Source of the DNA: a virus
Taxonomy: Duplodnaviria > Heunggongvirae > Uroviricota > Caudoviricetes
Direction: 5' to 3' (one strand)
IMG/VR virus record: IMGVR_UViG_3300028025_001180
Length of the DNA: 64,000 nt
The notes beneath the pieces are model-generated. The model was not told the DNA's origin. It saw only the letters and a list, made by a program, of their open reading frames with translations, and did no database searches. Each line of letters begins with the position of its first letter. Within the stretch, counting starts at the first letter, position 1. Positions 1 to 15,555 of this stretch are shown one piece after another. Position numbers and translations under genes: made by a program.

Positions 1-38
1 CAGTTCCTATTGTAGGAACGTATAAAGGAAGTAGACAC

Positions 39-272
39 ATGGATGGTATGTGGGTGATACCTAGTATTAGTACAGAACAAATGATTATAGGTATAAAAGA
101 AACTATCAAAACCTACGAGCACAGAAGAAATGAGATGTTGAAAGCACGTGATAGTAGAAGCTGGTTAGAAGTGTGCAAGATATTAAAGAAGTACTACGAC
201 AATGTTCGTAAGATAAATAAAGAGTATACATCAGATATAACAAAACAATTATACATAGAAGCATATGTTTAA
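39..272 (+). CDS. Hypothetical protein. The reading frame is open back to window position 3, so it may be the C-terminal part of a longer gene truncated by the window edge. Its stop overlaps the ATG of the next gene (ATATGTTTAA), suggesting translational coupling.
   Basis: ORF track. The frame upstream of the ATG at 39 has no stop codon back to the window start. Its position is consistent with an operon with the 265..1326 gene. Confidence 0.4.
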   Translation: MDGMWVIPSISTEQMIIGIKETIKTYEHRRNEMLKARDSRSWLEVCKILKKYYDNVRKINKEYTSDITKQLYIEAYV

Positions 273-1326
273 ATATAACTTGAATCTAGTTAATGAATTA
301 TTCTTTGAACTTACACACACTCCTGAGAACAAAGAGTATAAGATAGTATTTTTAGATAAGAAGAAAGAACTATACAGCACCACTCTTAAGAAAGGAATGT
401 GGGCTAAGTATCCTCAAAGATATCTTACTAATTACTTTGTGGAGATATGGGATGGGGAGATGTTGAAAGAAAGAATTAGCTTCATAGATCAGATGAAAGG
501 TAAGCGTGTGTTTATATCTTTTGAATCTAGTTCATTAGGAGATAGCATTGCTTGGATACCATACTGTCTAGAGTTCAAGAACATATACCAATGTGATGTC
601 ATAGTATCTACATTCAAGAATGAACTGTTTGAATCTGTATATCCAGAACTTAAGTTTGTAGGTAGAGGTGTAACAGTAGATAATATCATAGCAATGCTTG
701 AACTAGGATGGTTTTGGGATAAGCTAAAAGAACCTACACACCCTGCCACTATACCATTACAACAAGCAGCATCTAATATATTAAACCTAAAGCACAGAGA
801 GATACAACCTAGGATAGCTTTCACTCCTAAAGAAAGACCTATACTAAATAAATACATCTGTATCTCTACTAGATCTACAGCTCAGTGTAAGCATTGGTAT
901 TATTGGAAAGAGTTAATTAGAGAGTTACAAGAGATGGGATATGCTGTATTTGAGATGTCACAAGAAGCTGATGACTTGGGTGCTGATAAACTAGAAGATA
1001 AATCACTAGATAATGTAATGAACTATCTACACCATGCAGATCATTACATTGGTTTGTCAAGTGGTATAAGCTGGCTCAATTGGGGAATAGAAAAGAAAGG
1101 AACAATGATTTCTAACTTCACAGAAGAAGGTCATGAGTTTCAAAGCAATTGTATACGTATAACTAATAAGAATGTATGTAATGGCTGTTGGAACAATCCT
1201 CTGTTTAAATTCAATAAGGGTGATTGGAACTGGTGTCCTGAAAATGAAAATAGCCCTAGACAGTTTGAATGTCATAAGGCTATTTCAATGGAAGATGTTT
1301 TACTTAGTTTTAAATCTCTTCTGTAG
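265..1326 (+). CDS. Putative GT-B glycosyltransferase of the TibC/BAHT (bacterial autotransporter heptosyltransferase) type, 353 aa.
   Basis: The C-terminus carries a Cys tetrad, CNGC-x15-C-x11-C (C-x2-C-x15-C-x11-C). This matches the spacing I recall for the Fe-binding 'iron-finger' of TibC (C358/C361/C377/C389). There is an upstream SSLGDSIAWIPY Gly-Asp-Ser region. The size is right for a single GT-B protein. No homology search was run. Confidence 0.45.
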   Translation: MFKYNLNLVNELFFELTHTPENKEYKIVFLDKKKELYSTTLKKGMWAKYPQRYLTNYFVEIWDGEMLKERISFIDQMKGKRVFISFESSSLGDSIAWIPYCLEFKNIYQCDVIVSTFKNELFESVYPELKFVGRGVTVDNIIAMLELGWFWDKLKEPTHPATIPLQQAASNILNLKHREIQPRIAFTPKERPILNKYICISTRSTAQCKHWYYWKELIRELQEMGYAVFEMSQEADDLGADKLEDKSLDNVMNYLHHADHYIGLSSGISWLNWGIEKKGTMISNFTEEGHEFQSNCIRITNKNVCNGCWNNPLFKFNKGDWNWCPENENSPRQFECHKAISMEDVLLSFKSLL

Positions 1327-1498
1327 GAACTTCTATTGCTCCTTGAGACTTAGCTAGTTCTAATGCTACAGCTTCAATAAACTTCAATATATCATTGCCA
1401 TACATTGTAGGCAATTTCTCATTAGCATAGTTCATTAATAGTTGAACCTTTTCTGCAGTCAAAGAAGGAACTGGTAGTTGTTTTGTTTCTTGATTCAT
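1310..1498 (-). CDS. Small hypothetical protein, 62 aa. It is the last gene of the minus-strand block and its 3' end overlaps the converging plus-strand gene by 17 nt.
   Basis: ORF track only. Coding-like composition. No motif recognised. Confidence 0.35.
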   Translation of the reverse strand: MNQETKQLPVPSLTAEKVQLLMNYANEKLPTMYGNDILKFIEAVALELAKSQGAIEVPTEEI

Positions 1499-1552
1499 AA
1501 TATATGATTTTTAACAAAGGTAAGTTAACTAAATTAATTACCAAAATTTACT

Positions 1553-1948
1553 TTATTCAATAATTGTAGTTGTTGTTGTGGTGGTTTCTACAGGAGTCTC
1601 TGTTGTTGTTGTTGTAGTTGTAGGTTCTATAGGAGCTTCAGTGGTTGTAGTGGTGGTAGTAATTGGAACAGGAGGTACATAATCACCTGTGATTGTTAGG
1701 TTAAGTTGTTCAGCTACCCAATCCCAAGCATAAGCATCCACTTCCCATTGAGTGTAGGCTTCACCTGTCATATAAAGGTTGCCTTGAGCCACTTGAATAC
1801 CAAGATTACCATCTTCTTGTTCTGTCAATAAGACATAGTAAAATGTAGCACTTGTTCCTAAAGTTACATTTATGGCATAAGCATTTAATATCTTAGCCTC
1901 TAAAATTTGTCCATTGTCCCATATTGAGACAGGTTGAATTGTTTTCAT
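1553..1948 (-). CDS. Hypothetical virion-associated protein, 131 aa, with a C-terminal poly-Thr tail (TTTTTTTEAPIEPTTTTTTTETPVETTTTTTT).
   Basis: ORF track. The poly-Thr linker is the same kind seen in five other structural proteins of the block. It follows the BNR gene after a 27-nt spacer. Confidence 0.55.
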   Translation of the reverse strand: MKTIQPVSIWDNGQILEAKILNAYAINVTLGTSATFYYVLLTEQEDGNLGIQVAQGNLYMTGEAYTQWEVDAYAWDWVAEQLNLTITGDYVPPVPITTTTTTTEAPIEPTTTTTTTETPVETTTTTTTIIE

Positions 1949-1975
1949 TTTTATTTGTTTTTATTTTTATTTTTA

Positions 1976-3658
1976 TTAGCATGTTCCGTCAAACATTTGA
2001 ATAGAAACTGTACCTCCACCAGTTACAACTTGCCCAGCAAATGTTCTACTTGTTCCAGTTGCACTTACGCAAGTAAGATTAGAAGAAGTGTCTATAACCT
2101 CCACAGAGTCATTGCTTATATTTGTATAAGATACAACTATTGTTCTTGATGCCCCAGTTTGCGTTGTTGTTCCAGATGCACCATTACCAGCTGTTATTGG
2201 GAATGTAACACCACTTACTTGCACACCATTAATGGTTATATCTGTAATTGATGTACCAGCAGTATTATTAGTAATATCAACAAAAGCAGGACCTGCCGCA
2301 GTTGTAGTGGTGGTTGTTGTTGGAGTGTTTAATAATGCTTTTCTATATATTTGGCTCCAAGCACGAGCTGTTGTAGCACTGACTATAAAACTAGATCCTC
2401 CATTTATACTATAGTTAAACTGCCCTATATTGTTTAACATCATGGCAATATAATTGTTTGTAATACCTGTAGTGACAGCTGTACCACCAGCTATAGCAAC
2501 ATTATTAGTATACCCATCACTTTGTGCAAAAGAAGTACCTGAATTAATTGATGATATGACTAAAGGTGAAAATGATGAAGGAGAGTAGAATGATGTAGTT
2601 GTAAACTCATTTGTAGCCCCCACCATAACTTGTCCATTATCTGATATAGTTGCAGAGGTAAACCCTACACGTCTTGTGCTAGCAAAATAACTAACTGTGT
2701 TTGAATACCTTTCAGTAAAGCTAGAACCAAAATTGTTTGTAACAAATGCTTTTACTCCTTGTGTTCCACCAAGACCTGGTTCAAGATAGTCAGTTGTTAA
2801 AAACTGATTTTGACCTGTTCCATCTAAGGCAATATCAAAAAATCTTGAAAACTCGCTACCACCACTTCTTGTCCAAGTAGATCCATAGTTAGTTGAGTAA
2901 ATTCTAAATGACCAAGGTCTTGGAGTATTAATCCCTCCTGGATCCACTTCATAAGAATAAACAGCAGTCATATATTGACCATTTCCAGATACAGATATTT
3001 TAAATGGATAATTGTTATACATATTAACATTCATAGAATCTGTATATATAGTACCAAATGAAACACCATAATCTGATGATGCTACAAGTAAAGCCTGTTT
3101 GAGACCTCCTGCACTCAAAGTGTTTGTTAGACCTGCTATACCTATATATTGTCCATTATTAGACATAGCTACACCTGTTGGATAAAGGGTGCCACCAAAA
3201 ACTCCACTTATTAATTTTGCTGTGAATGTAGCTCCTCCATCACTAGATAGATAAACTGTAAGACTTAATGAATTAGTAACAACAGCAATGTATGTTCCTG
3301 TACTATCTCCTGCTATTGCTGTCCAAGTATAAGATGATGTCAAACCTGATAAAGCTGTAAAAGTGTTCCCCCCATCTGTAGATTTATAAGCAGCTGTTCC
3401 TGCCACCCCATACATTACATATGGAGAGGTACTAGTAATTCCTGATAAATCTTCTCTAGTTACTAATTGATTTGATGCTTTGGCAGCATATGTAGGAAGT
3501 GATGTATTTATATTTACATAAGTGTTAGCTTCAGTTTTTGTGATTTGCTTAAGACTGCTTGGTATAGTTGTCTTAGCTGTAAAAAAACCTTGAGTAACAC
3601 CACTTTGTAAGTTATTAAAACTAATGGTCTGATTTTGTTGTAAATCACTATATGCCAT
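1976..3658 (-). CDS. BNR/Asp-box repeat (sialidase-like beta-propeller) protein, 560 aa. Putative receptor-binding or glycan-degrading tail protein.
   Basis: At least six S-x-D-x-G-x-T-F/W type repeats (KSTDGGNTF, SSDGGATF, SSDYGVSF, STNYGSTW, TNNFGSSF, INGGSSF). A poly-Thr linker is followed by a C-terminal domain. It lies immediately downstream of the two tail-fibre genes. Confidence 0.75.
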   Translation of the reverse strand: MAYSDLQQNQTISFNNLQSGVTQGFFTAKTTIPSSLKQITKTEANTYVNINTSLPTYAAKASNQLVTREDLSGITSTSPYVMYGVAGTAAYKSTDGGNTFTALSGLTSSYTWTAIAGDSTGTYIAVVTNSLSLTVYLSSDGGATFTAKLISGVFGGTLYPTGVAMSNNGQYIGIAGLTNTLSAGGLKQALLVASSDYGVSFGTIYTDSMNVNMYNNYPFKISVSGNGQYMTAVYSYEVDPGGINTPRPWSFRIYSTNYGSTWTRSGGSEFSRFFDIALDGTGQNQFLTTDYLEPGLGGTQGVKAFVTNNFGSSFTERYSNTVSYFASTRRVGFTSATISDNGQVMVGATNEFTTTSFYSPSSFSPLVISSINSGTSFAQSDGYTNNVAIAGGTAVTTGITNNYIAMMLNNIGQFNYSINGGSSFIVSATTARAWSQIYRKALLNTPTTTTTTTAAGPAFVDITNNTAGTSITDITINGVQVSGVTFPITAGNGASGTTTQTGASRTIVVSYTNISNDSVEVIDTSSNLTCVSATGTSRTFAGQVVTGGGTVSIQMFDGTC

Positions 3659-3659
3659 A

Positions 3660-6600
3660 TTATTTTAATTTAGCTTCTAATTCTTCAATACGTTTTTCCA
3701 AACTAGCAACCTTTGCCACTAACACTTGTGCGTAAGACAAAGATAAGAAACCATCTTCACTTTCTATCACTGCACTTGGTAATATTTCTTGTAAGTCCTG
3801 TGCGTAGTATCCTAATTCCTCTTTACCATCTTTTATGTATAGCTTAGGCTTTATAGCCTCTATTCCACTAATTATAGGCTTATCACTTATTTCTTTCTTT
3901 AAACGCTTATCTGAAAATTCAAAGAATGATGTAGCTGTGACTGAAGAACTAAATGTAGCAGCACCTGTTGTTGCAATTTTTAATCCTGTTGGGTCGCTTC
4001 CACCTGCAGGTCTTAACCATATACCATTTCCTGATGTAGATTCTAATAATGAAAATGATGAAACTACTTCCCCAACAAACATAGAATTACCTGCTAAAAT
4101 TCTTGAAGTAAACCTTCCTGTACCATTAACATCTAACTTGTATCCACTATCTGTTGTAGTACCTATTAATACGTTACCACCATTTTGATTTAATGCTAAT
4201 GGTTTATAACCTATTAATTGCTCTACTGCTTGTATTGTTCCATATCCCAATGAGTGATAACCAAATATTAATTGAGCATTTGTATTACTTGCTCTTTGTA
4301 TAACAAGTTGCTCATTACCTGCATCTGCTGAAATTGTTAATCTATTTCTAAATATACCTGTACCATTAACATCTAATTTATATCCTGCGTCAGTTGTAGT
4401 TCCTATTAATACATTACCACCGCTTGTGATTCTCATTCGTTCGCTTCCTGCATTCTCAAATATTGTTGCAGCAGATTCAGAGTTATTGATATAAAGATTT
4501 GTACTATCATCTATACCAATAAACGTACCATCGCTTGTACCTTCTCCTGTGTTTGAATTAACTAAGTGTAATTGCGCTCTGTTTGCAGTACCTGCACCAT
4601 AGATTTGTAAAACTCTATTATTTGATGCTTGACCTGTTGCATTTGCAGTTCCTATTCCTAAATTGCCACCACTTGTTATCCTAGCCCATTCTGTATATGT
4701 TAAACCATTTGTACCTAATCTTCCAAATGTTAAAAATCCACCTCCTGCTCCATGTGCAAATAAATCTGTACTATTACCTGCTGCTAAGTCTTGACCTAGT
4801 CCAGCAAATACATTTGTTCCATTATCATACACTAAAAATTTAGCTCCAATTCCTGTTCCAAGTGAAAGTTTTGAATATCCTAAAGGGTTAGTAATTCCAA
4901 TACCAATTCCTGTACCACTTTCATACATTATGCTATTCCCAATAGAACTTGCACTACTCCATTTAGGAATATAGTTGGTAGTACCACTACCTGTTACACC
5001 ACTTCCACCACCTCCTCCAATAGTTACACCATTAATTTGGAATACACCATTAATGTTTACGTTACCATTAACTTGTAAAGCTCCTCCACCTGTAATACCT
5101 GCAGTATTAATTAATACTTGGCTAGCTTGATTAATAGTCATTACAGTAGTTAAAATACTACTTTGTAATGTCTTAAAATATAAAACTCCACCAGTTCCTG
5201 CAAATTTACTTCCTTGTATTTGTGCTTTTGTTTGACCAATATCAGCCTTAAAGTTTAAAAAAGTATCACCTGCACTATTATCACCAGAGATGCTTAATGT
5301 AGCATTTGTTGTAGGTCCACCTACTATTACTTCACCACCGCTTGTGATTCTCATTCGTTCGGTACCATTTGTAATAACACCTAAATCGTGATTAGTAAAA
5401 GTACCAATCAATCCTAAAGACGAATAAGTAATACCAGTTCTTATTGTTCCATTACCAGCTGCAACTGCACCGCCTATTACATCAAGTTTCTCACTTGGAC
5501 TACTCGTTCCGATTCCAACATTACCACCATTAGTTAATACCATTTTAGCAGCACCTCCACCTGTTTGCCAATTATGACTTAAAGCATCATAGTTAAGATT
5601 AGTATAAGCTGAACCTGTATAAGCCTGTATGTCTACTGCAGATGCTTGAGTTAATCTTAATGTGCTTCCTACAAATACGCTACTAGATAACGTAGCAGCA
5701 CCTGTAACTCCTAATGTACCACCAAATGTTCCATTTCCACTTGCAGCAAAATCACCATTGCTACCACCTGTAGCTGATATATTAACTCCTGGTGTACAAA
5801 CGTGAGTTAATGTAGAACCTGTTTGAGCTGACCCTCCAAATGTAACTGTTTCATTGTTTAAAGGATACACCTCAACATTCATTGTACAGACATTAGGAGA
5901 ATTGCTAGTTGCTTCAACTGAAAAGTTTTCATCATTATTACTTATAACTCTTAAAGTTAATAATGTGTAAATACCTGCTTGAGAGGTGATTAAAATATCT
6001 TGGGAATGATTTACTAAGATGTCAGCTGTTACGTTGATAACTACACTTCCAGTGGTGCCTTGCAATGTCATTCTAACAGCAGATGCTAAAGCATTACCTG
6101 TTACATTACAAACCACTGTATATCCTGCATTACTTACATTAGCTGTAGAAACATATCTCTTAACAGCTCTTTCAAGTGAGCTTGAATTAAAGTAATAATC
6201 TGTAGCACTTACAGTGCTTGAGAATGTAGCAGATCTATCAGTAGCAATAGATAACGCAGTTGTAAATGTATTAGAAGTGGCTATATCAGCCCCACCTGAA
6301 ACTCTTATAGTAAAAGGGACTGATGCAAATCCTAAAAAAGGATTCTGTCCTCCTATTTTTACAAACCCTAATCTTGGAACTGCTTGTGCATCTGTTCCAA
6401 TATAAGTGGATTCTCCATTTACACTAATGGTACCAGTAGGTGAAAAGATTATATTATTAGTCCAAGCTCCTCCATTTAAATGCCAAAAAGCTAAATCATA
6501 AGTAGCATCTTGTTGTAAAATCCAACCTCTATTATTTGTACTATCTAATATTGTAAATCTTGAACTACCTCCTACTGTATTTGAACTACCTGCTCCATTT

Positions 6601-8168
6601 GCTATTATTTCAGCAGTAGCTCCTGTAGTTCTAATGTTACCAGTAAATGTAGCAGTTGTACCATTTAAAGCTCCTGTCAACGTACCACCTGCTAAAGGTA
6701 AGTAAGTAGAAGATGCACTACTTGTAGTTAAATATGTATTTGAATCTATACTTCCATCTGCTTTTAAAAACTGAGTTGATGTACCACCGCTTTTTATTAA
6801 ACTATTTGCTGTTACAGAAGATGAGAATGTAGCTGTACCAGTTACTTGGAACCTTGCACCATTACTTGTTTGAGTTCCTATTATTACGTAACCATCAGAT
6901 GTGATACGCATACGTTCAACAACACTTGTAGCAGATGCACCATATCCTGTTCCAAATGAAACACCTGCATCGTTACTGCCATTAAATTGAAGATAACCTA
7001 GCCATGTAGAATCTACCTTTTGTTGTATTCTGAAACCTGCACTTGTCCAAGAAGTACCATTAACAACACGAGTGTTTGTTAATTCTAACAAATCAACACT
7101 ACCTGTATTAACTTGCAATTTTTGAACTAATGATTGGTTTCCTAATGTTGTCCCAAGGGTAGGCCCTACAATATTTAATTTGGATGATGCGTCAGCATTT
7201 CCTCCAATACCTATATTCTTATTTGCATCCCAAGCATAAGGAAACTCTATTTCACTACCAAGACCCTGATCTCCCCATCTTGATGTTAGTAAACGAATAG
7301 ATGATATTCTTACTGATGAAGCATTAGTAGTAGTTATAGTTAGTCTAACAAAGTTGTCCCCACCAAAGGTAGTGATATAAAACCAAGCAGGGATGGCATT
7401 ATAAGTATTTGATGACGTATGTCTAACTGTCCAAGTAACATTGTCCGCAGAAGATTCAAATACAATTGTCTTTGCTGGTGATACCACTGTATATGTAAAT
7501 CCAATACATAACCAACTTGCACTGTTAAAAGAAACTCCTGTCCAAATCCATCTTGCAGAAAGTATAGTTGTACCATTAATAATCTCAATATTTTGGTTTT
7601 GTTTTTGTGCAAATAAATTATTATTTAATGTTGCAGAATTATAAGTAATACCATCAGCTGATGTTTGATATTGAGGTGAGTATAATCCAAATGAAAATAC
7701 ATCATGCCATAGATATGGAGAAATAGGAGATTGTGCAACCTGTGATGTATCAGATGGTATCACTGTATTTGTTAATGATCCATTTTGTTTAAAGCTCTGT
7801 AGGCCAAATGCAAAAATACCTCCAGTAGATGATACGTTTACTAAATTAGTTCCATCAAATGTTAAGTTAGCTTCAGCGTTTGCTGTATTAGTAGTTCCTA
7901 ATGATGTAAGAATTCTATTATCAACAGGATTTGTAATTGTACTAAATCCAGTACCAGACGTACCAGAAGAACCATTGGCACCTGATGTGCCAGATGTTCC
8001 TGTAGTACCACTAGTTCCCTTTGTACCACTTGTACCACTAGATCCTGCTATACCATTGGCTCCTGAGGTTCCACTTGATCCTGCTATACCAGACGTTCCA
8101 GAAGTAGAATAACTGATTGGTACACCACTATCAGTCAAAAGATTATTAGTAATTAAAGCTATGCCCAT
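3660..8168 (-). CDS. Tail fibre, 1502 aa, with an N-terminal collagen-like G-[TS]-[SA] tract, internal 'ERMRITSGGNV-IGTT' fibre repeats, and a C-terminal peptidase-S74 intramolecular chaperone (self-cleaving) domain.
   Basis: The N-terminus is GTSGIAGSSGTSGANG... The repeats ERMRITSDGYVIIGT, ERMRITSGGEVIVGG, ERMRITSGGNVLIGTTTDAGYKLDVNGTG and NGGNVLIGTTTDSGYKLDVNGTG are present. The last 84 aa, SDKRLKKEISDKPI...GYYAQDLQEILPSAV...LSLSYAQVLVAKVASLEKRIEELEAKLK, match the endosialidase/T5-Ltf chaperone consensus SD-R-K-NI...AQEVQEV-PEAV. Confidence 0.88.
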   Translation of the reverse strand: MGIALITNNLLTDSGVPISYSTSGTSGIAGSSGTSGANGIAGSSGTSGTKGTSGTTGTSGTSGANGSSGTSGTGFSTITNPVDNRILTSLGTTNTANAEANLTFDGTNLVNVSSTGGIFAFGLQSFKQNGSLTNTVIPSDTSQVAQSPISPYLWHDVFSFGLYSPQYQTSADGITYNSATLNNNLFAQKQNQNIEIINGTTILSARWIWTGVSFNSASWLCIGFTYTVVSPAKTIVFESSADNVTWTVRHTSSNTYNAIPAWFYITTFGGDNFVRLTITTTNASSVRISSIRLLTSRWGDQGLGSEIEFPYAWDANKNIGIGGNADASSKLNIVGPTLGTTLGNQSLVQKLQVNTGSVDLLELTNTRVVNGTSWTSAGFRIQQKVDSTWLGYLQFNGSNDAGVSFGTGYGASATSVVERMRITSDGYVIIGTQTSNGARFQVTGTATFSSSVTANSLIKSGGTSTQFLKADGSIDSNTYLTTSSASSTYLPLAGGTLTGALNGTTATFTGNIRTTGATAEIIANGAGSSNTVGGSSRFTILDSTNNRGWILQQDATYDLAFWHLNGGAWTNNIIFSPTGTISVNGESTYIGTDAQAVPRLGFVKIGGQNPFLGFASVPFTIRVSGGADIATSNTFTTALSIATDRSATFSSTVSATDYYFNSSSLERAVKRYVSTANVSNAGYTVVCNVTGNALASAVRMTLQGTTGSVVINVTADILVNHSQDILITSQAGIYTLLTLRVISNNDENFSVEATSNSPNVCTMNVEVYPLNNETVTFGGSAQTGSTLTHVCTPGVNISATGGSNGDFAASGNGTFGGTLGVTGAATLSSSVFVGSTLRLTQASAVDIQAYTGSAYTNLNYDALSHNWQTGGGAAKMVLTNGGNVGIGTSSPSEKLDVIGGAVAAGNGTIRTGITYSSLGLIGTFTNHDLGVITNGTERMRITSGGEVIVGGPTTNATLSISGDNSAGDTFLNFKADIGQTKAQIQGSKFAGTGGVLYFKTLQSSILTTVMTINQASQVLINTAGITGGGALQVNGNVNINGVFQINGVTIGGGGGSGVTGSGTTNYIPKWSSASSIGNSIMYESGTGIGIGITNPLGYSKLSLGTGIGAKFLVYDNGTNVFAGLGQDLAAGNSTDLFAHGAGGGFLTFGRLGTNGLTYTEWARITSGGNLGIGTANATGQASNNRVLQIYGAGTANRAQLHLVNSNTGEGTSDGTFIGIDDSTNLYINNSESAATIFENAGSERMRITSGGNVLIGTTTDAGYKLDVNGTGIFRNRLTISADAGNEQLVIQRASNTNAQLIFGYHSLGYGTIQAVEQLIGYKPLALNQNGGNVLIGTTTDSGYKLDVNGTGRFTSRILAGNSMFVGEVVSSFSLLESTSGNGIWLRPAGGSDPTGLKIATTGAATFSSSVTATSFFEFSDKRLKKEISDKPIISGIEAIKPKLYIKDGKEELGYYAQDLQEILPSAVIESEDGFLSLSYAQVLVAKVASLEKRIEELEAKLK
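3663..3914 (-). other. Peptidase-S74-like intramolecular chaperone domain of the 1502-aa fibre. The predicted autocleavage serine is in FSDKRLK.
   Basis: Motif match as described for the parent CDS. Confidence 0.8.
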
Positions 8169-8191
8169 TGTTCAAAGTTAGTTTATTTCTA

Positions 8192-11100
8192 TTATATAAA
8201 TGTAAATTCTCTCCATGATGTACTTGTTTTAACCCATAATCCTTCAACTCCATCAGTTTGATATACTATTAATCCTGTTGCTGGTGACGATATTGCCAAT
8301 CTTTGAGCAGCTGTCATCACAGGAGGTAAGAAACCTTGAGTGGTAGAAGAAACTTGTAAAGCAGCAGTTGCAACTGAAGTGGTTGTTCCTATGTTAGTTG
8401 TACCTGCAACACAAAGACCATTAGTAGGAGCTACAGTTGATGTTGAATAACCTATTGCAACGTTTCCATTTACTTGTAAACGACTGCCTATTAAGTTGTA
8501 AGCTAATGCAATACCAACATTACCTGATGAAGATATTACTAATTTATCTGCATTTGTGCTTGTAAAAAATGATAAATAGTCATTTGTATTATCATAAATT
8601 ATTCTACCTTTAAAATCTGTTCCACTAACTGAAAAATCTATTACACTACCACCTGTTGCACTACCATTCATTTGTAAATATGCATAGTTTGCATCACTAT
8701 GCATATGTAATCCCAATCCTATTGTTGAACTTGAACCTCCTGTTACATATAGCTGAGAAGGGAAACTTGTACTACCAATAGAAGTGTATCCATTTATATA
8801 ACTATTAGAACCCAAAGTTATCAATGCCCCTGTATCTGTAATATTACTATTACCTATTGTAGTTGCACTTGTAAACTTAGCCACTGTGTTTGTAGTACCA
8901 GAAACTGCCACTGATGTTCCAGACGATCCACTAGTTCCAGATGTTCCAGATGAACCAGAGGTTCCGCTTGTTCCTGATGTACCACTAGTACCTTTAGTAC
9001 CACTGGTTCCACTCGAACCAGATGTAGCAGAAGTTCCACTAGATCCACTTGTAGCAGACGTACCTGATGATCCATTAGTACCAGATGTACCACTAGAGCC
9101 AGAAGTTCCACTAGTTCCTGTTGTACCACTTGACCCTGATGTAGCAGACGTGCCAGAACTTCCAGATGTTCCACTTGTACCAGACGACCCACTAGTACCA
9201 CTAGTTGCAGAAGAACCTGAAGATCCACTGGTTCCTGAACTTGCTGAGGTGCCAGAGCTGCCATTTGTTCCTGCAATCCCTGAGCTACCTGAAGTTCCAG
9301 CTGTACCATTACCTCCAGAAGCACCATCAAGATTTACTGTCCATGATGTAAATGTACCAGATCCCACTGTTCTAGTTGGGGCTCCAAATTGAAGAGCTCC
9401 TGTAGATGGGTTGTATGATACCACCTCACACTCTTGAAAGTTTGTAATGCTATTAACTATTATTATAGATTGAGCCACTGAATATGCCAACCCTGTTCCT
9501 ACAGTGATTGTCCCAGCATTGCCTAAAGTGAAGGATGTAGTAGATGTTGTTTGATATCTATCTCCAGATAATCCTGCAGTTCCAGATGTTCCAGACGTAC
9601 CAGTAGAACCACTTGTACCAGATGTTGCTGAAGTTCCAGACGTACCCTTAGTACCACTTGTACCACTTGATCCAGAGCTTGCTGATGTACCAGACGAACC
9701 ACTAGTCCCTGAAGTACCTGAACTACCAGACGAACCACTAGTTGCAGATGTGCCTGAGCTACCACTAGTACCAGATGTTCCAGATGAGCCACTACTACCA
9801 GAAGAAGCTGAAGTACCTGATGAGCCTGATGTAGCACTAGTGCCAGATGAACCTGAGGTTCCACTTGTTCCGCTAGTTCCCTTTGTACCACTAGTTCCAC
9901 TTGAACCACTCGTACCTGCTGTGGCATTTATACCTGAAGTACCAGCAGTAGCATTTAAACCAGATGTTCCAGAGGTACCTTGTAAACCAGAAGTACCTGA
10001 AGTAGCTGAAGTTCCAGATGTACCAGAAGAGCCAGAAGTACCAGAAGTTCCAGACGTACCTCCTCCTACAATAAGAGAAGCCTCAAAATAACTTCCTGTA
10101 CCTGAAGTATTAATATTTTGTGAAGTTGTATTTCCTGTAAAAGCAGTAACTTCTAAATAATCTGTACTTCCATTTAAGTAAATAATTTCATTTATTTGTT
10201 GAGCATACCCAGCACCACTTAATATTTGAGTTTGATTTATGCCAATTTGAGTAGAACCATTTTTTCTAAATTGTATATTAGTTTGATTGTTTGTAACAGC
10301 ACCAGCATCCCACCAAATTTGAGCATTAACATTGTAATATCCAGCAATAGTTGGCTGAAATTTATTTGGTGTGAACCAACTATTAGGATCAACATCATCA
10401 ACAAATGCTACAACTTGGTCAGATCCATTTGTTATAGTTTGTGGTGCATTTTTTATAGCTCTAAAAAGATAATTAGATGCTACTAATCCTGTAGGAGAAA
10501 TACCACTAGACCCACTAGTTCCAGCTGTACCACTGCTTCCAGAAGTACCAGACGTACCAGTAGATCCTGATGTACCTGATGTTGCTGATGTACCACTAGA
10601 TCCAGATGTGCCACTAGATCCAGATGTACCACTGGTTCCACTTGTAGCAGAAGACCCTGAAGTTCCACTAGTGCCTGATGTACCCTTAGTTCCAGATGTT
10701 CCACTTGAACCTGAAGTTGCAGATGTTCCGCTACTACCACTTGATCCACTAGTACCACTTGTTCCAGAAGAACCACTAGTTGCACTCGTACCACTTGATC
10801 CAGATGTTCCACTAGATCCAGAAGTACCACTAGTTGCTGAAGTTCCAGAAGAACCATTTGTTCCACTAGTACCAGATGAACCATTAGTTCCACTTGTGCC
10901 ACTAGTTCCTTTTGTTCCACTAGTTCCACTAGACCCAGCAGTGCCACTTGAACCAGAGGTTCCAGTAGAACCACTTGTTCCACTTGTTCCACTTGATCCA
11001 TTGGTACCACTTGTTCCACTAGAACCTGATGTGCCAGATGAACCAGAGCTTCCACTTGATGCAGAAGTTCCTGAAGATCCTGATGTGCCAGAAGTTGCAG

Positions 11101-14100
11101 ATGAACCACTTGATCCAGATGTACCTGCTGTGCCACTTGAACCACTTGTTGCACTGGTTCCACTTGATCCACTTGTACCACTAGACCCATTGGTTCCAGA
11201 AGAACCAGATGTACCACTAGTTCCAGAACTACCACTTGTTGCAGATGTTCCAGACGTACCAGATGTACCCTTTGTTCCACTAGTTCCACTTGATCCAGAT
11301 GAACCACTTGAAGCTGATGTACCAGAAGATCCAGATGTTCCAGATGTTCCAGAAGTTCCATTCGCTCCAGATGTACCAGAGGTACCAGAAGGAGGAGTAA
11401 ATGTAGTTTGTGCGTATGAATAATTACTTACACCCTCTGTGTAGAAAGTTATTGTATTAGCAGAGCCACCATTATGTTGTGCATAGATTTGACAATATAG
11501 TCTGTCTGTTGCGTTCAATGCAGTTTGACCTAAGAAAAGATCAGTGAAAAACTCTTTGATGACACCAGTGGTCATACCCTCTGTGTCTAAGTTTGTAGTA
11601 CCTAGAAGAGTAGATGCTCCTCCTGTTGTATATTTATATAGCTCTATATCAACTGCTACATTTACATTTGCGTTGATAGAAAAGTGAGTGACCCAAGCCC
11701 AGTTTCCTGAAGGTAGATTTGTAGCATTTGGTATACCTGAATCTGTAGCATAAGTTGCTATTAGTGTACGAACATTTTGTGTAACACTTAGTACCACAGT
11801 TTGTTCAGCAGTACCTGTACCAATAGGTGACCACTCTTTATATGTAGGTGTGCCAAAAGCACTATTTGTATTTACAGATTGATTTAAGTAGTATATAAGA
11901 CCTCCAGCCACACCACTTACACCAGAACTTCCTGCTGTACCAGATGTACCTGAACTGCCTGATGTTCCACTGCTTGCAGACGTACCAGATGTACCTGCTG
12001 TTCCACTTGATCCATTAGTACCACTAGTTCCAGTAGTTCCAGATGTTGCAGAAGTTCCGCTCGATCCATTGGTTCCACTAGTTCCACTAGTTCCAGATGT
12101 ACCTTTTGTACCACTAGTTCCAGAGCTTCCACTAGACGCAGAAGTACCAGAAGAACCAGAAGTAGCACTTGTACCAGAACTTCCATTAGTACCTGCTGTT
12201 CCACTCGAACCAGATGTTCCACTTGTTCCACTAGAACCACTTGAACCAGAAGTTCCTGAACTACCAGATGTTCCAGAGGTTCCACTAGATCCTGACGAGC
12301 CACTTGACGCAGATGTACCTGAAGTAGCAGAACTACCAGAAGTCCCTGAGGACCCATTAGTTCCACTTGAGCCATTGGTTCCAGATGAACCTGAAGAGCC
12401 TGAAGAACCACTGGTTGCAGATGTACCAGATGTTGCACTTGTACCAGAAGAACCAGAAGATCCACTTGTGCCTGAAGAAGCAGAAGTACCAGAAGACCCA
12501 CTAGTTGCAGAGGTTCCACTAGAACCTGCTGTTGCACTTGTACCTGATGAACCAGATGTTGCAGATGTGCCAGATGAGCCACTTGTTCCTGAGCTACCAG
12601 AAGTTCCACTTGTAGCAGATGTACCTGCAGTGGCAGATGTACCAGAACTACCAGCAGTGCCAGACGAACCACTCGTACCACTAGAACCATTGGTACCAGA
12701 TGTACCATTTGATCCAGCTGTACCACTAGTTGCACTAGTTCCATTACTTCCATTTGTGCCACTTGTTCCAGAAGAACCACTGGTGCCACTTGACCCAGAA
12801 GTACCTGCTGTAGCACTAGTTCCTGCTGTACCACTAGATCCAGATGTAGCAGATGTACCAGACGTAGCAGATGAACCAGAAGTTCCTGCTGTTCCAGAAC
12901 TACCATTAGTGCCACTAGTTCCACTAGTGCTACTAGTTCCAGAAGTAGCAGAGGTTCCATTAGACCCACTAGTACCAGAAGTACCAGACGACCCACTTGT
13001 TGCAGAAGTACCACTAGACCCATTTGTTCCAGATGTGCCTGACGATCCACTTGTCGCACTGGTTCCACTAGAACCAGAGGTACCAGATGTTCCTGTTGTG
13101 CCAGAACTACCACTAGTAGCACTTGTTCCACTTGAGCCAGATGTACCAGAAGTACCAGAAGACCCTGAGCTTCCACTTGTACCAGAGCTACCTGATGTAC
13201 CACTAGAACCATTGGTGCCAGCTGTACCAGCACTTCCTGACGTACCTGAGCTACCATCTCCACCTGATGCACCATCTAGATTGACAGTCCAAGTGGAATA
13301 TGTGCCAGAGCCTACAGTTCTGCTAGGAGCACCAAACTGAAGGGCTCCTGTATTAGTATTATAAGAAATTACCTCACATTCTTGGAAATTTACACTATCA
13401 TACACTATGATAATAGACTGTGCCAATGTATAGGCTAGTCCTGTACCAACTGTGATTGTTCCAGCGTTTCCTAATGTAAAAGATGTATTTGATGTTGTTG
13501 CGTATCTATCACCACTTAAACCAGCAGTTCCAGAAGATCCAGAAGAACCAGATGTTCCTGAAGAAGCTGACGTACCTGAAGAAGCAGATGTACCACTGGT
13601 AGCACTAGTCCCACTAGAACCAGATGATGCAGATGTTCCACTCGATCCACTAGTAGCTGAAGTTCCACTAGAACCAGACGTTCCAGAAGTTGCAGATGTA
13701 CCACTGCTGCCACTTGTTCCAGCAGTACCACTACTACCACTTGTACCAGAAGTTGCACTCGTTCCAGAACTTCCAGAAGTAGCTGAAGTTCCACTTGATC
13801 CACTAGTTGCACTTGTGCCACTAGAACCACTTGTTCCAGCAGTTCCACTAGAACCAGAAGTTCCACTTGAAGCTGATGTTCCACTAGTAGCTGATGTGCC
13901 ACTTGAACCACTAGTTGCTGATGTACCACTAGATCCGCTAGTACCACTTGATGCTGATGTACCAGATGTACCTGTTGTACCAGACGTACCTGTAGTTCCA
14001 CTAGACCCACTTGTTCCTGAAGAAGCACTAGTGCCACTAGTTCCACTAGAACCATCTGTTCCAGACGTACCTGATGTTCCTGTTGTTCCAGATGAGCCTG

Positions 14101-15403: not shown

Positions 15404-15555
15404 ATATTAATAATAATAATGTATAAGTAATTGATATACAAATAGGTGTATACTATGGGAAAGTGTACACCTATATACGCAAAAATAGCGAATTTAATTT
15501 AGTTTCAATGAGTTAGGAAAATTATTCCTACATAATATAGCAATAACTATGCTAT

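What the first reader, a model, noticed from the sequence alone, without database searches (positions are those of the whole stretch)
265..1326. Phage-encoded TibC/BAHT-like glycosyltransferase with an iron-finger Cys tetrad, next to fibres made of Ser/Thr-rich repeats
The only sizeable plus-strand gene encodes a 353-aa protein whose C-terminus has the spacing C-x2-C-x15-C-x11-C. That is the spacing I recall for the Fe(III)-coordinating Cys358/361/377/389 of TibC, the dodecameric autotransporter heptosyltransferase. TibC/AAH enzymes O-heptosylate serines in the repeated strand-loop-strand beta-helix units of autotransporter adhesins. Here the gene sits about 1 kb from two giant tail fibres built from hundreds of G-T/S-S triplets and beta-helix-like ERMRITSGGNV-IGT repeats. 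It is also near six proteins with poly-Thr linkers. A phage that glycosylates its own fibres, or modifies host surface proteins, with a BAHT-family enzyme would to my knowledge be undescribed. The gene is translationally coupled (ATATGTTTAA) to an upstream ORF that enters from beyond the window, so this may be a two-gene modification module.
Basis: partly seen in the sequence, partly recalled or inferred. Interest (0 to 1): 0.75.

Follow-up and report, generated by a model that had tools for sequence, protein, structure and literature searches.

The report
Phage TibC-like glycosyltransferase beside collagen-like fibres
A crAss-like environmental phage carries a genuine but trimmed relative of the bacterial enzyme TibC, which puts sugars on adhesin proteins. 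The enzyme closes a seven-gene sugar-modification cluster that most likely decorates the phage's own serine/threonine-rich, collagen-like tail fibres.

Summary
ORF 265-1326 (+) encodes a 353-aa protein with C305-x2-C308-x15-C324-x11-C336.

**Family.** It scores 227 bits against NCBIfam TIGR04414 (Aah/TibC O-heptosyltransferase; cutoff 200). It matches TibC 4RAP at E 9e-39, and its AlphaFold model superposes on TibC (TM 0.83). The four Cys align with TibC's iron-binding Cys339/342/358/370. Catalytic Asp and the Thr/Lys/Trp donor contacts are conserved. It lacks TibC's beta-hairpin thumb, which is needed for the dodecamer, and Arg286, the adenine contact. No autotransporter gene is nearby.

**Context.** The gene is the last of a seven-gene plus-strand island: GT9, GT4, unknown, methyltransferase, GT2-like, GT4, BAHT. 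It converges on poly-Thr proteins and collagen-like fibres made of (Gly-Thr/Ser-Ser)n, with 313 triplets in one protein.

**Association.** BAHT-like genes sit next to (G-S/T-S)n proteins in most of about 150 related phage contigs. The same holds in two unrelated phages and in several distant bacterial genomes. GT4-BAHT fusions are common. Where relatives add 2OG oxygenases, the fibre triplets gain proline (p=1e-6).

**Reading.** Most likely a cytoplasmic O-glycosyltransferase that primes the phage's own fibres. This is inferred, not shown, and the donor sugar is unknown. Databases already auto-label such proteins, but no paper describes them.

The parts
1..272 (+). C-terminal 89 codons of a 335-aa GT4-family (Glycos_transf_1) glycosyltransferase that starts beyond the window. 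Its stop overlaps the BAHT start by 8 nt (ATGTTTAA).
   Evidence: 99% identical to residues 247-335 of the L001 protein and 84% to the L006 340-aa protein. Pfam PF00534/PF13692 hit the full-length protein in L175, the same phage. In other phages this GT4 is fused directly N-terminal to the BAHT domain.
265..1326 (+). BAHT-like (Aah/TibC family) protein O-glycosyltransferase, 353 aa. It has an N-terminal beta-barrel (aa 1-72), a two-lobed catalytic domain and a Cys4 finger insert. It has no beta-hairpin thumb.
   Evidence: TIGR04414 227 bits, cutoff 200. TibC 4RAP E 8.8e-39. AF2 pLDDT 85.8, Foldseek to TibC TM 0.83. Thumb deletion and residue mapping.
541..543 (+). Codon for Asp93, equivalent to the TibC catalytic base Asp110.
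   Evidence: Aligned. Invariant in 41 homologues and in all 144 aligned BAHT domains. Role taken from PMC4358343.
877..891 (+). Codons for Thr205 to Lys209, equivalent to TibC Thr226 and Lys230 (beta-phosphate contacts of the donor).
   Evidence: Role taken from PMC4358343.
1072..1074 (+). Codon for Trp270, equivalent to TibC Trp305 (sugar O4 contact).
   Evidence: invariant in all 144 aligned BAHT domains.
1177..1272 (+). Cys305-x2-Cys308-x15-Cys324-x11-Cys336, the metal (iron) finger insert.
   Evidence: Aligns with TibC Cys339/342/358/370. Invariant. Metal identity was not testable, and the AF2 model is of low confidence here (aa 318-333, pLDDT below 50).
1310..1498 (-). 62-aa ORF convergent with the BAHT gene, overlapping its 3' end by 17 nt. 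Also called as a gene in the same phage and in a 95%-identical strain variant. Function unknown.
1553..1948 (-). 131-aa protein with three T7 runs at its C-terminus. Homologues occupy this position next to BAHT in most related phage loci. It is a candidate acceptor or fibre-associated protein.
   Evidence: No Pfam or PHROG hit.
1976..3658 (-). 560-aa protein with seven Asp-box/BNR-like motifs, a T7 linker and a C-terminal domain. Probably a tail-associated propeller protein.
   Evidence: No Pfam or PHROG hit.
3660..8168 (-). 1502-aa tail fibre. It has an N-terminal collagen-like (G-T/S-S) tract (aa 24-72), three RMRITSGG-type motifs and a C-terminal Peptidase_S74 intramolecular chaperone domain.
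   Evidence: Pfam Collagen and Peptidase_S74. Tail-fibre PHROGs. Motifs.
8192..15403 (-). 2403-aa collagen-like fibre protein with 313 G-x-y triplets (X = Thr/Ser in 300, Y = Ser/Thr in 259) and 44% Ser+Thr overall. It is the proposed main acceptor.
   Evidence: Pfam Collagen E 2e-117, 16 stretches. Tail-fibre PHROGs. Composition.

Best explanation
ORF 265-1326 encodes a soluble, cytoplasmic protein O-glycosyltransferase of the Aah/TibC (BAHT) family. It keeps the family's N-terminal beta-barrel, catalytic Asp, donor-phosphate and sugar contacts and the Cys4 metal finger. It has lost the beta-hairpin thumb that builds the TibC dodecamer and the Arg that reads adenine.

It is the last gene of a seven-gene plus-strand island: GT9, large GT4, 328-aa unknown, SAM methyltransferase, GT2-like, GT4, BAHT. 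The island is embedded in the structural module of a crAss-like phage.

Proposed mechanism (inferred). During infection the BAHT-like enzyme transfers the first sugar from a nucleotide sugar to Ser/Thr hydroxyls of the phage's own fibre proteins before or during assembly. The main target is the Pro-free collagen-like (Gly-Thr/Ser-Ser)n tracts, and possibly the poly-Thr linkers. The co-encoded GT4, GT2 and GT9 enzymes extend the glycan and the methyltransferase caps it. In relatives, sulfotransferase plus APS kinase and prolyl-hydroxylase-like oxygenases add further modifications. A glycan coat would stabilise a proline-free triple helix and protect or tune the host-recognition fibres.

Shown: family membership, fold, conserved catalytic residues, island composition, and the genomic association with (G-S/T-S)n proteins. 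Inferred: acceptor, donor sugar, order of enzyme action and biological role.
For: **Family and fold**
- TIGR04414 227 bits against a cutoff of 200. TibC E 8.8e-39, 31% identity.
- AF2 pLDDT 85.8. Foldseek to TibC E 1.6e-24, TM 0.83; WaaC/WaaF only about 1e-6.
- D93, T205, K209, W270 and Cys4 align with TibC D110, T226, K230, W305 and C339/342/358/370. They are invariant or nearly so in 41 close homologues and 144 aligned BAHT domains.

**Island**
- L175 is 100% identical to window 1-11326 and shows the seven-gene operon.
- None of the enzymes has a TM segment, and there is no flippase, polymerase or ligase.

**Functional linkage within the island**
- GT4-BAHT, MT-GT4-BAHT, GT2-GT4-BAHT and BAHT-DUF6165 fusions occur among the nearest cluster representatives and in at least three phage lineages.

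**Link to the fibres**
- In the IMG/VR loci (L009-L078) BAHT lies beside poly-Thr proteins and (G-T/S-S)n fibre genes, immediately convergent with them in most. Among the metagenome loci, 22 of the 26 with at least 5 kb downstream have such a gene.
- The same pairing recurs in lineages where synteny cannot be inherited from this phage group. These are Microcystis phage Mel-JY01, the 735-kb phage LR756501, an Ignavibacteriaceae contig, a Saprospirales MAG and three Arenicellales loci.
- In two of the three Arenicellales loci BAHT is flanked on both sides, and in the third on one side, by small (GSS/GTS)n lipoproteins within 1.2 kb. No other gene in these loci matched the phage island's glycosyltransferases.
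- Negative control: the closest isolated relative, Leptolyngbya phage Lbo-JY46, has no BAHT and no collagen-like run.

**Island content tracks fibre chemistry**
- All six non-redundant loci with island 2OG-Fe(II) oxygenases have 7-27% Pro at triplet position X. Only 1 of 38 loci without them reaches 5% (Fisher p = 1e-6).

**Precedent**
- BAHTs glycosylate their protein substrates in the cytoplasm (PMC4358343).
- Thr glycosylation converts (Gly-Pro-Thr)10 from coil to triple helix, and the BclA collagen-like region is O-glycosylated (PMC11923368).
- Mycobacteriophage virions are glycosylated by phage glycosyltransferases (cited in PMC12619734).
Against: - There is no biochemical or proteomic evidence, so the acceptor is inferred from gene neighbourhood only.
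- Within the large phage clade the synteny may simply be inherited. The truly independent lineages number about six.
- One huge phage, LR756504, has BAHT with no collagen-like gene within 12 kb.
- Collagen-like fibres exist in many phages without BAHT (PHROG 1806 and others), so the enzyme is not generally required.
- TibC recognises a folded strand-loop-strand beta-helix, not a G-x-y tract. No autotransporter-like repeat was detected in the fibres.
- Arg286 is Val here, and Thr or Val in 72 of 78 phage loci. R286A cripples TibC, so the donor may not be ADP-heptose.
- No heptose-activation genes were seen in the 74 kb available.
- The GT9 and GT4 content also fits polysaccharide or LPS-core chemistry, which is the usual reading of glycosyltransferases next to tail-fibre genes (PMC7029224).
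Confidence: 0.55

Rival explanations
1. The island remodels the host cell envelope rather than the virion. BAHT and GT9 would add heptose or other sugars to the LPS core or O-chain, or build a surface polysaccharide. The effect would be to block superinfection or to stop progeny adsorbing to debris.
For: - This is the standard interpretation of glycosyltransferase clusters next to tail-fibre genes in aquatic phages (PMC7029224).
- The island includes a plain GT9 that weakly matches the LPS heptosyltransferases I and II, GT4 and GT2-like enzymes, and in relatives sulfotransferase plus APS kinase.
- LPS-core glycosyltransferases are also soluble or peripheral enzymes without TM segments (my own knowledge; compare).
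Against: - The window protein is TibC-like, not WaaC-like (227 bits against 15.9 bits). It keeps the beta-barrel and metal finger, which in TibC contact the protein substrate.
- No Wzx, Wzy, WaaL or Gtr-type membrane proteins are present.
- Island oxygenase content co-varies with the proline content of the fibre repeats, which LPS chemistry would not predict.
- In the Arenicellales loci BAHT sits with (GSS)n lipoproteins and with none of the phage island's glycosyltransferases.
Confidence: 0.15
2. The enzyme glycosylates the virion, but on the poly-Thr linkers or the small poly-Thr protein encoded next to it (1553-1948), in the manner of mucin-type linkers. The collagen-like tracts would not be the target.
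For: - Homologues of the 131-aa poly-Thr protein lie immediately downstream of BAHT in most phage loci.
- T7 runs occur in four virion-module proteins of the window.
- Mycobacteriophage glycans sit on the C-termini of capsid and tail-tube subunits (cited).
Against: - Outside this phage clade the poly-Thr proteins are absent, while the (G-S/T-S)n partner persists: Mel-JY01, LR756501, Ignavibacteriaceae and Arenicellales.
- Characterised BAHTs modify Ser (PMC4358343).
Confidence: 0.12
3. The enzyme modifies a host protein, for example an autotransporter or repeat adhesin or lipoprotein of the host, as canonical BAHTs do. This would alter host surface properties during infection.
For: - The family precedent is autotransporter adhesins (PMC4358343).
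- The Arenicellales homologues sit next to cellular lipoproteins.
Against: - No autotransporter or adhesin gene lies in the window or in the 9.7 kb to its left.
- The likely hosts are Bacteroidota, and the enzyme's conserved neighbours are phage fibre genes.
- A lytic phage gains little from glycosylating slowly exported host adhesins.
Confidence: 0.08
4. The island hypermodifies phage DNA with sugars, including heptose, to evade restriction.
For: - Phage GT-B enzymes can attach heptose and other sugars to 5hmC (bioRxiv 10.1101/2023.12.21.572611).
- The island contains a methyltransferase, and in relatives 2OG oxygenases.
Against: - The DNA glycosyltransferases are T4 beta-GT-like and sit next to C5-cytosine methyltransferase, TET-like 5mYOX or ThyS.
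- Here the methyltransferase is a Methyltransf_23-type enzyme, and the oxygenases are P4H/PKHD-type (PF13640, PF13759, TIGR02466).
- The fold is TibC.
- The island sits in the structural module and tracks fibre composition.
Confidence: 0.03

Closest known systems
TibC / AAH (bacterial autotransporter heptosyltransferases, BAHT; NCBIfam TIGR04414; PDB 4RAP, 4RB4)
   Same: - Homologous over the full length: 31% identity, above the curated HMM cutoff.
- Same fold, including the N-terminal beta-barrel.
- Same catalytic Asp, the same Thr/Lys phosphate contacts and Trp sugar contact.
- Same C-x2-C-x15-C-x11-C finger.
- Soluble cytoplasmic enzyme.
- Ser at the TibC-Pro300 / AAH-Ser294 position, as in AAH.
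   Different: - A 10-residue deletion removes the beta-hairpin thumb (Phe265/Val266) that links the dimers into the dodecamer.
- Arg286, the adenine N1 contact, is Val.
- There is no autotransporter partner.
- It is phage-encoded and embedded in a multi-enzyme island.
- The likely acceptor is a collagen-like G-T/S-S tract rather than a strand-loop-strand beta-helix.
- Donor and metal are unverified.
LPS heptosyltransferases WaaC / WaaF / WaaQ (GT9, PF01075)
   Same: GT-B, GT9 superfamily. Weak Pfam and structural similarity (20 bits; Foldseek E about 1e-6). A plain GT9 paralogue is the first gene of the same island.
   Different: No beta-barrel or metal finger in WaaC/WaaF. Scores are far below family cutoffs (15.9 bits against 185). 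Their acceptor is Kdo2-lipid A, not a protein.
Virion glycosylation in mycobacteriophages (Freeman et al. 2023, as cited in PMC12619734)
   Same: Phage-encoded glycosyltransferases decorate the phage's own structural proteins on Ser/Thr-rich segments in the cytoplasm.
   Different: - Different glycosyltransferase families and different hosts (Actinobacteria).
- The targets there are the C-terminal tails of capsid and tail-tube subunits. Here the major head protein has no Thr run and only 13% Ser+Thr, and the candidates are fibres.
- Not demonstrated here.
O-glycosylated collagen-like proteins (Bacillus BclA; Riftia cuticle collagen; glycosylated (Gly-Pro-Thr)10 peptides), as summarised in PMC11923368
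   Same: G-x-y repeats with Thr in place of hydroxyproline. Glycosylation of Thr is known to stabilise the triple helix.
   Different: Those systems use other glycosyltransferases. The repeats here are Pro-free G-T/S-S. No BAHT-family enzyme has been linked to collagen-like proteins in the literature I could search.
Giant-virus capsid and fibril glycosylation clusters (chloroviruses, mimivirus); from my own knowledge plus the title of PMC9614988
   Same: Virus-encoded multi-glycosyltransferase clusters, some with methyltransferases, build glycans on virion proteins independently of host machinery. Mimivirus also hydroxylates and glycosylates collagen-like proteins.
   Different: These are eukaryotic viruses with different enzyme families, and no BAHT-type enzyme is known there.

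Membership tests
BAHT (Aah/TibC O-heptosyltransferase family, TIGR04414) | Full-length match to the family HMM above the curated cutoff | tested here: met
   227 bits against a cutoff of 200, E 3.5e-67, protein 24-349 on profile 28-371 of 374. phmmer to TibC E 8.8e-39.
BAHT (Aah/TibC O-heptosyltransferase family, TIGR04414) | Protomer architecture: N-terminal flattened beta-barrel plus a two-lobed GT-B-like catalytic domain | tested here: met
   The AF2 model (pLDDT 85.8) has seven strands in aa 3-72 followed by alternating strand-helix lobes. Foldseek to 4RAP: TM 0.83 over 373 columns.
BAHT (Aah/TibC O-heptosyltransferase family, TIGR04414) | Cys4 iron-finger insert (TibC Cys339/342/358/370) | tested here: met
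   C305/308/324/336 align one to one with the TibC ligands. Invariant and kept in about 97% of 144 domains. Iron versus zinc cannot be decided from sequence.
BAHT (Aah/TibC O-heptosyltransferase family, TIGR04414) | Catalytic base Asp110 and donor contacts Thr226, Lys230, Trp305 | tested here: met
   D93, T205, K209 and W270. D, K and W are invariant in all 144 aligned domains.
BAHT (Aah/TibC O-heptosyltransferase family, TIGR04414) | Arg286 contacting adenine N1 (basis of ADP-sugar specificity; R286A abolished or largely diminished heptosylation) | tested here: not met
   Val251 in the window protein. Thr or Val in 72 of 78 phage loci and never Arg there. Variable across the wider family: T45, R29, V24.
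   A 10-residue gap lies opposite TibC 'ygqgfvwnhi'. The segment is 18 aa against 28-29 aa in TibC. The short form occurs in 72 of 78 phage loci. The oligomeric state itself is not testable here.
BAHT (Aah/TibC O-heptosyltransferase family, TIGR04414) | Genetic pairing with an autotransporter adhesin substrate (TibA, AIDA-I) | tested here: not met
   No autotransporter, AIDA or pertactin domain in the five downstream proteins (Pfam) or in the 9.7 kb upstream. The neighbours are phage fibre genes.
BAHT (Aah/TibC O-heptosyltransferase family, TIGR04414) | ADP-heptose-dependent O-heptosylation of Ser | not testable with these tools
   This needs an enzyme assay. No heptose-activation genes were seen in the 74 kb available, and the rest of the genome is not available.
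GT9 LPS heptosyltransferases (WaaC/WaaF) | Match to the equivalog HMMs or to Pfam PF01075 above cutoff | tested here: not met
   PF01075 20.3 bits against a cutoff of 22. TIGR02193 15.9 bits against 185.3.
Phage virion self-glycosylation systems (mycobacteriophage type) | Phage glycosyltransferase genes within or beside the structural module, plus Ser/Thr-rich acceptor segments on virion proteins | tested here: met
   The island is embedded in the structural module. (G-T/S-S)n and T7 tracts occur in the neighbouring virion proteins.
Phage virion self-glycosylation systems (mycobacteriophage type) | Glycans demonstrated on virion proteins | not testable with these tools
   Requires mass spectrometry or glycostaining of virions.
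Phage DNA sugar-hypermodification clusters | T4 beta-GT-like or GT-A DNA glycosyltransferase next to a C5-cytosine methyltransferase, 5mYOX/TET or ThyS | tested here: not met
   The fold is TibC. The methyltransferase is Methyltransf_23-type, and no TET/JBP or ThyS lies in the island. Criteria.
Collagen-like triple-helix repeat proteins (acceptor candidates) | Long uninterrupted G-x-y runs matching Pfam Collagen | tested here: met
   2403-aa protein: PF01391 E 2e-117, 16 stretches. 1502-aa protein: 27.3 bits against a cutoff of 27.2. 313 triplets. Actual triple-helix formation is not testable.

The most novel reading that the evidence does not exclude
A thumb-less, Arg286-less offshoot of the autotransporter heptosyltransferases may be a dedicated 'collagen-tract O-glycosyltransferase'. 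It would prime Ser/Thr of proline-free (Gly-Ser/Thr-Ser)n repeats, so that glycosylation takes the place of hydroxyproline in stabilising the triple helix.

Phages of a widespread aquatic crAss-like lineage, and some unrelated phages and bacteria, would combine it with swappable GT4, GT2, GT9, methyl-, sulfo- and hydroxylase modules. The result would be a hypervariable glycan code written on their host-recognition fibres. That would be a new acceptor class and a new biological role for the BAHT family, and a new layer of phage host-range and evasion variation.
Probability: 0.35. Interest if true: 0.8.

Novelty: new variant of a known kind. Interest (0 to 1): 0.6.

Why it matters
BAHTs are known only as virulence-associated enzymes that heptosylate autotransporter adhesins in Proteobacteria.

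This work shows that the family has a much larger environmental branch. There are 1279 clusters at 50% identity, many of them fused to other glycosyltransferases. Much of the branch is phage-borne and is consistently paired with (Gly-Ser/Thr-Ser)n collagen-like proteins.

If the inferred activity is real, several things follow.
- It adds a second, mechanistically distinct example of bacteriophage virion glycosylation.
- It explains how proline-free collagen-like fibres could fold.
- It reinterprets the glycosyltransferase islands next to tail-fibre genes in aquatic phages, which are usually read as host LPS modification.
- It offers compact cytoplasmic enzymes for glyco-engineering of repeat proteins.

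It also warns that the automatic product name 'autotransporter strand-loop-strand O-heptosyltransferase' given to these phage proteins is probably wrong about the acceptor and possibly about the sugar.

Tried and rejected
**Searches that gave nothing useful**
- PHROGs: no family for the protein or for the upstream fragment.
- Megablast of window 1-20000 against phages: no match.
- Promoter and terminator scan of 1-2200: nothing above the shuffles.
- Literature searches for phage plus O-heptosyltransferase, TibC or phage-encoded heptosyltransferase, and for collagen-like plus phage plus glycosylation: no paper describes a phage BAHT. 'TibC' mostly matched unrelated text.
- The Freeman 2023 paper could not be opened and is cited second-hand.
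- The afdb50 fold library was not available.
- One Pfam call failed on wrong coordinates.
- The genome-contig scan used a single narrow pattern and returned only 11 loci. The metagenome scan returned 80 loci, nearly all from the same phage clade. Independent lineages therefore remain few.

**Ideas considered and rejected**
- The ERMRITSGGNV-IGT motif as the acceptor. It occurs only three times, far apart, in one fibre, is present in few related loci, and there is no autotransporter-type repeat domain.
- A zinc ribbon unrelated to TibC. The Cys align with the iron finger.
- DNA hypermodification (criteria not met).
- A recently acquired island. GC content is the same as the rest of the genome.

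**Not possible**
- Deciding the donor sugar or finding heptose-activation genes. Only 74 kb of the genome could be read.
- Checking the Cys4 geometry.
Full report
**1. The observation**

- The window has an ATG-initiated ORF at 265-1326 (+) of 353 aa. Every other plus-strand ORF of 120 aa or more lies antisense inside a long minus-strand gene, so it is the only credible plus-strand gene.
- Its C-terminus reads NKNVC305-NG-C308-WNNPLFKFNKGDWNW-C324-PENENSPRQFE-C336-HKAI, which is C-x2-C-x15-C-x11-C.
- The start codon overlaps the stop of an upstream ORF by 8 nt (ATGTTTAA). That ORF runs off the window start.

**2. What the protein is**

- NCBIfam TIGR04414 ('autotransporter strand-loop-strand O-heptosyltransferase', Aah/TibC) matches at 227 bits, E 3.5e-67, over residues 24-349. 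This is above the curated cutoff of 200. LPS heptosyltransferase I scores only 15.9 bits, and Pfam Glyco_transf_9 is just below its cutoff (20.3 against 22).
- The only solved structures matched by sequence are TibC 4RAP and 4RB4 (E 8.8e-39, 31% identity).
- An AlphaFold2 model built on 41 homologues (pLDDT 85.8, pTM 0.85) has a seven-stranded N-terminal barrel (aa 3-72) followed by two alpha/beta lobes.
- Foldseek places all TibC chains first (E 1.6e-24, TM 0.83). The GT9 enzymes WaaC and WaaF follow only at E about 1e-6.

*Residue mapping against the TibC paper (PMC4358343)*

| TibC residue | Role in TibC | Window protein |
|---|---|---|
| Asp110 | catalytic base | D93 |
| Thr226, Lys230 | beta-phosphate contacts | T205, K209 |
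| Trp305 | heptose O4 contact | W270 |
| Cys339/342/358/370 | iron ligands | C305/308/324/336 |
| Pro300 (Ser294 in AAH) | heptose stereoselectivity | Ser265 (AAH-like) |

- These residues are invariant in 41 close homologues. D, K and W are invariant in all 144 aligned BAHT domains, and the Cys tetrad is kept in about 97% of them.

*Two TibC features are missing*

- A 10-residue deletion removes the beta-hairpin thumb (TibC 'ygqgfvwnhi', with Phe265/Val266).
- Arg286 is Val251. In TibC this Arg contacts adenine N1 and R286A abolished or largely diminished heptosylation.
- Both losses are typical of the phage clade. The short thumb segment occurs in 72 of 78 loci, and the Arg position is Thr or Val in 72 of 78 and never Arg.
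- Family membership is therefore firm. 'Dodecameric' and 'ADP-heptose' should not be assumed.

**3. The genome around it**

- The window is a phage structural module on the minus strand:
  - TerL (59760-61802), portal (57178-59760) and major head protein (53662-55215).
  - crAss tail-ring proteins 1 and 2, above the Pfam cutoffs (43883-44857 and 45340-46077).
- The nearest TerL relatives are Leptolyngbya phage Lbo-JY46 (39%), Cellulophaga phage phi17:2 (32%) and crAss-like phages.
- Downstream of the BAHT gene and convergent with it lie five genes:
  - a 62-aa ORF;
  - a 131-aa protein ending in three T7 runs;
  - a 560-aa protein with seven Asp-box-like motifs and a T7 linker;
  - a 1502-aa tail fibre with a collagen-like N-terminus and a C-terminal Peptidase_S74 chaperone domain;
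  - a 2403-aa collagen-like fibre (Pfam Collagen E 2e-117).

- The 2403-aa protein has 313 G-x-y triplets with X = Thr196/Ser104 and Y = Ser250. It contains essentially no proline.

**4.

- An ENA contig (L175) is 100% identical to window 1-11326 and supplies the 9.7 kb to the left.
- The BAHT gene is the last of a plus-strand operon:
  - a GT9 protein (268-312 aa);
  - an 881-aa GT4;
  - a 328-aa protein of unknown function;
  - a 183-aa SAM methyltransferase;
  - a 230-aa GT2-like protein;
  - a 335-aa GT4, whose last 89 codons are window 3-269 (99% identity to a strain variant);
  - the BAHT-like enzyme.
- A DUF6165 gene and the lysis region (GH19) lie further left.
- None of the island enzymes has a transmembrane segment.

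**5. Relatives**

- The protein has 1273 homologues with E of 1e-10 or better at 90% clustering. JGI already names many of them 'autotransporter strand-loop-strand O-heptosyltransferase'.
- An exhaustive search of 1.84 billion representatives finds 1279 clusters with E of 1e-3 or better.
- The nearest are mostly multidomain fusions: GT4-BAHT, GT2-GT4-BAHT, MT-GT4-BAHT-FkbM, tandem BAHT-DUF6165. These are the same domains that appear as separate genes here. This Rosetta-stone evidence indicates that the island works as one pathway.
- GenBank phages hold only four records: Microcystis phage Mel-JY01, where the domain is hidden in a 1227-aa 'methyltransferase FkbM', and three huge-phage assemblies.
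- No PHROG covers the family.
- BFVD has two viral structures. One is named 'Glycosyltransferase Aah/TibC [uncultured Caudovirales phage]'.

**6. Evidence on the acceptor**

I fetched 70 IMG/VR loci and 80 metagenome loci, called ORFs and labelled them by homology.

*Within the phage clade*
- BAHT is either stand-alone at the end of the glycosyltransferase operon or fused into a protein of 670-1400 aa.
- In the viral set it lies immediately beside small poly-Thr proteins and large (G-T/S-S)n fibre genes, convergent with them in most loci.
- Among the metagenome loci, 22 of the 26 with at least 5 kb downstream have such a gene.
- Accessory genes vary from locus to locus: methyltransferase, GT2, DUF6445, APS kinase plus sulfotransferase, and 2OG-Fe(II) oxygenases of the P4H/PKHD type.
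- Shared ancestry could explain this synteny, so I looked for independent cases.

*Independent lineages*
- In Mel-JY01 a (GTS)n protein of at least 1016 aa lies 1.7 kb upstream of the BAHT fusion. GenBank annotates its antisense strand instead.
- In the 735-kb phage LR756501 a collagen-like protein is divergent from a GT4 gene followed by a GT4-BAHT fusion.
- An Ignavibacteriaceae contig carries GT4, a BAHT fusion and a 1104-aa (GTS)n protein.
- A Saprospirales MAG shows the same pairing.
- In three Arenicellales loci BAHT is a lone glycosyltransferase. It is flanked on both sides in two loci, and on one side in the third, by small lipoproteins made of (GSS/GTS)n with poly-Asp tails, all within 1.2 kb. 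No such gene occurs elsewhere in the 21-kb loci.
- Of 12 BAHT lineages defined by single linkage at 55% identity, 7 have such a partner within 5 kb, and most of the rest have short flanks.
- As a negative control, Lbo-JY46 lacks BAHT and has no collagen-like run in any frame.

*Covariation between island and fibre*
- All six non-redundant loci whose island carries 2OG oxygenases have 7-27% proline at triplet position X.
- Only 1 of 38 loci without them reaches 5% (Fisher p = 1e-6, Mann-Whitney p = 7e-8).
- The related loci are not fully independent. Even so, this is what is expected if the island enzymes act on the fibre repeats.

**7. Mechanism proposed**

- BAHTs are among the few bacterial protein O-glycosyltransferases that work in the cytoplasm with nucleotide sugars on proteins before export (PMC4358343). 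That suits virion proteins.
- The conserved partner is the (G-S/T-S)n tract. I therefore propose that the enzyme primes its Ser/Thr, and perhaps the poly-Thr linkers. The other island enzymes would then extend and cap the glycan.
- A rationale exists in the literature (PMC11923368):
  - Ac-(Gly-Pro-Thr)10 is a random coil until its threonines are galactosylated.
  - Glycosylated Thr replaces hydroxyproline in a vent-worm collagen.
  - The BclA collagen-like region is O-glycosylated.
- Phage virion glycosylation is known in mycobacteriophages (cited).
- All of this section is inference. The donor is unknown, and the loss of Arg286 argues for caution about ADP-heptose.

**8. Rivals**

- Host LPS or O-chain remodelling is the usual reading of glycosyltransferases beside fibre genes (PMC7029224) and remains possible. 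It does not explain the TibC-type protein-binding modules, the Arenicellales pairing or the proline/oxygenase covariation. No membrane components are present.
- DNA hypermodification is unlikely, because the required T4 beta-GT-like enzyme and C5-MT, 5mYOX or ThyS neighbours are absent.
- Host-protein modification and a poly-Thr-only acceptor cannot be excluded.

**9. Novelty and verdict**

- The enzyme family is known, and pipelines already name these phage proteins.
- I found no paper describing a phage BAHT or a BAHT-collagen link.
- I classify it as a new variant of a known kind. It is thumb-less and Arg286-less, phage-borne and embedded in an island, and it probably has a new acceptor class.
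  - the island has seven genes, not two;
  - the partner is a collagen-like tract rather than a beta-helix motif;
  - 'dodecameric heptosyltransferase' should not be carried over.
- Interest 0.6.

Noticed in passing
window 1976-3658 (-): The 560-aa protein has seven evenly spaced Asp-box/BNR-like motifs ([ST]x[DN]xGx[TS][FWY] at aa 93, 138, 194, 255, 307, 370 and 417), then a T7 linker and a C-terminal domain of about 100 aa. This suggests a seven-bladed propeller, perhaps a sialidase-like or carbohydrate-binding tail protein. It has no Pfam or PHROG hit.
   Followed up: partly
window 43883-44857, 45340-46077 and 56645-57175 (-): Pfam CrAss_Ring_1 and CrAss_Ring_2 (crAss-like tail ring proteins) hit above their cutoffs, and there is an SPFH/Band-7 protein next to the portal gene. 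The phage therefore has a crAss-like tail, although its TerL is only 26-39% identical to any isolate.
   Followed up: partly
window 15556-20556 and 20556-31538 (-): Two giant ORFs (1666 and 3660 aa) have no Pfam hit (only the 1666-aa ORF was scanned) and no confident PHROG match. Only a marginal exonuclease PHROG hit (E 3e-6) falls on part of the 1666-aa protein. Homologues of the 1666-aa protein follow the collagen-like fibre gene in many related loci.
   Followed up: no
window 8854-14234, both strands; L008 (PP395634.1) 739-2298: The (G-T/S-S)n coding repeats raise GC to 0.41-0.47 and create long spurious antisense ORFs (158-452 aa). The same artefact appears to be annotated as a real CDS in GenBank for Microcystis phage Mel-JY01: the minus-strand 'PEVPRVPLVP...' protein. 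The plus-strand collagen-like gene of at least 1016 aa is not annotated there.
   Followed up: yes
window 3967 onward, compared with L001 and L002: A strain variant is 95% identical to window 1-3967. The alignment then breaks into mosaic pieces of 91-97% inside the fibre genes. The glycosylation island is conserved while the fibres are hypervariable.
   Followed up: partly
L006 3184-4122 (+); equivalent gene at L175 3332-4138: The first gene of the island is a GT9 paralogue of 268-312 aa without the beta-barrel. It has its own C-terminal Cys cluster (...SCGLHC...C...ETFECH), which resembles the BAHT finger. It matches the LPS heptosyltransferase HMMs and TIGR04414 only weakly.
   Followed up: partly
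L086, L088 and L091 (Arenicellales genomes), within 1.2 kb of the BAHT gene: Small predicted lipoproteins (lipobox, then (GSS/GTS)n, then a poly-Asp tail) flank a lone BAHT homologue (both sides in L086 and L088, one side in L091), together with a conserved 294-351-aa protein of unknown function. This is a possible cellular counterpart of the phage system.
   Followed up: partly
L004, L016, L021, L022, L019, L061-L066 and others: Relatives of the island carry APS kinase plus sulfotransferase, a conserved 130-aa protein, and/or up to five 2OG-Fe(II) oxygenases. This implies sulfated and hydroxylated fibre or glycan variants. Oxygenase presence tracks proline in the fibre triplets.
   Followed up: partly
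L081 (Sediminibacterium MAG) and L090 (Lutibacter MAG): Short contigs binned into Bacteroidota MAGs carry the phage-type arrangement (DUF6165, fused BAHT, poly-Thr protein). This is a weak hint that the hosts of this phage clade are Bacteroidota.
   Followed up: no
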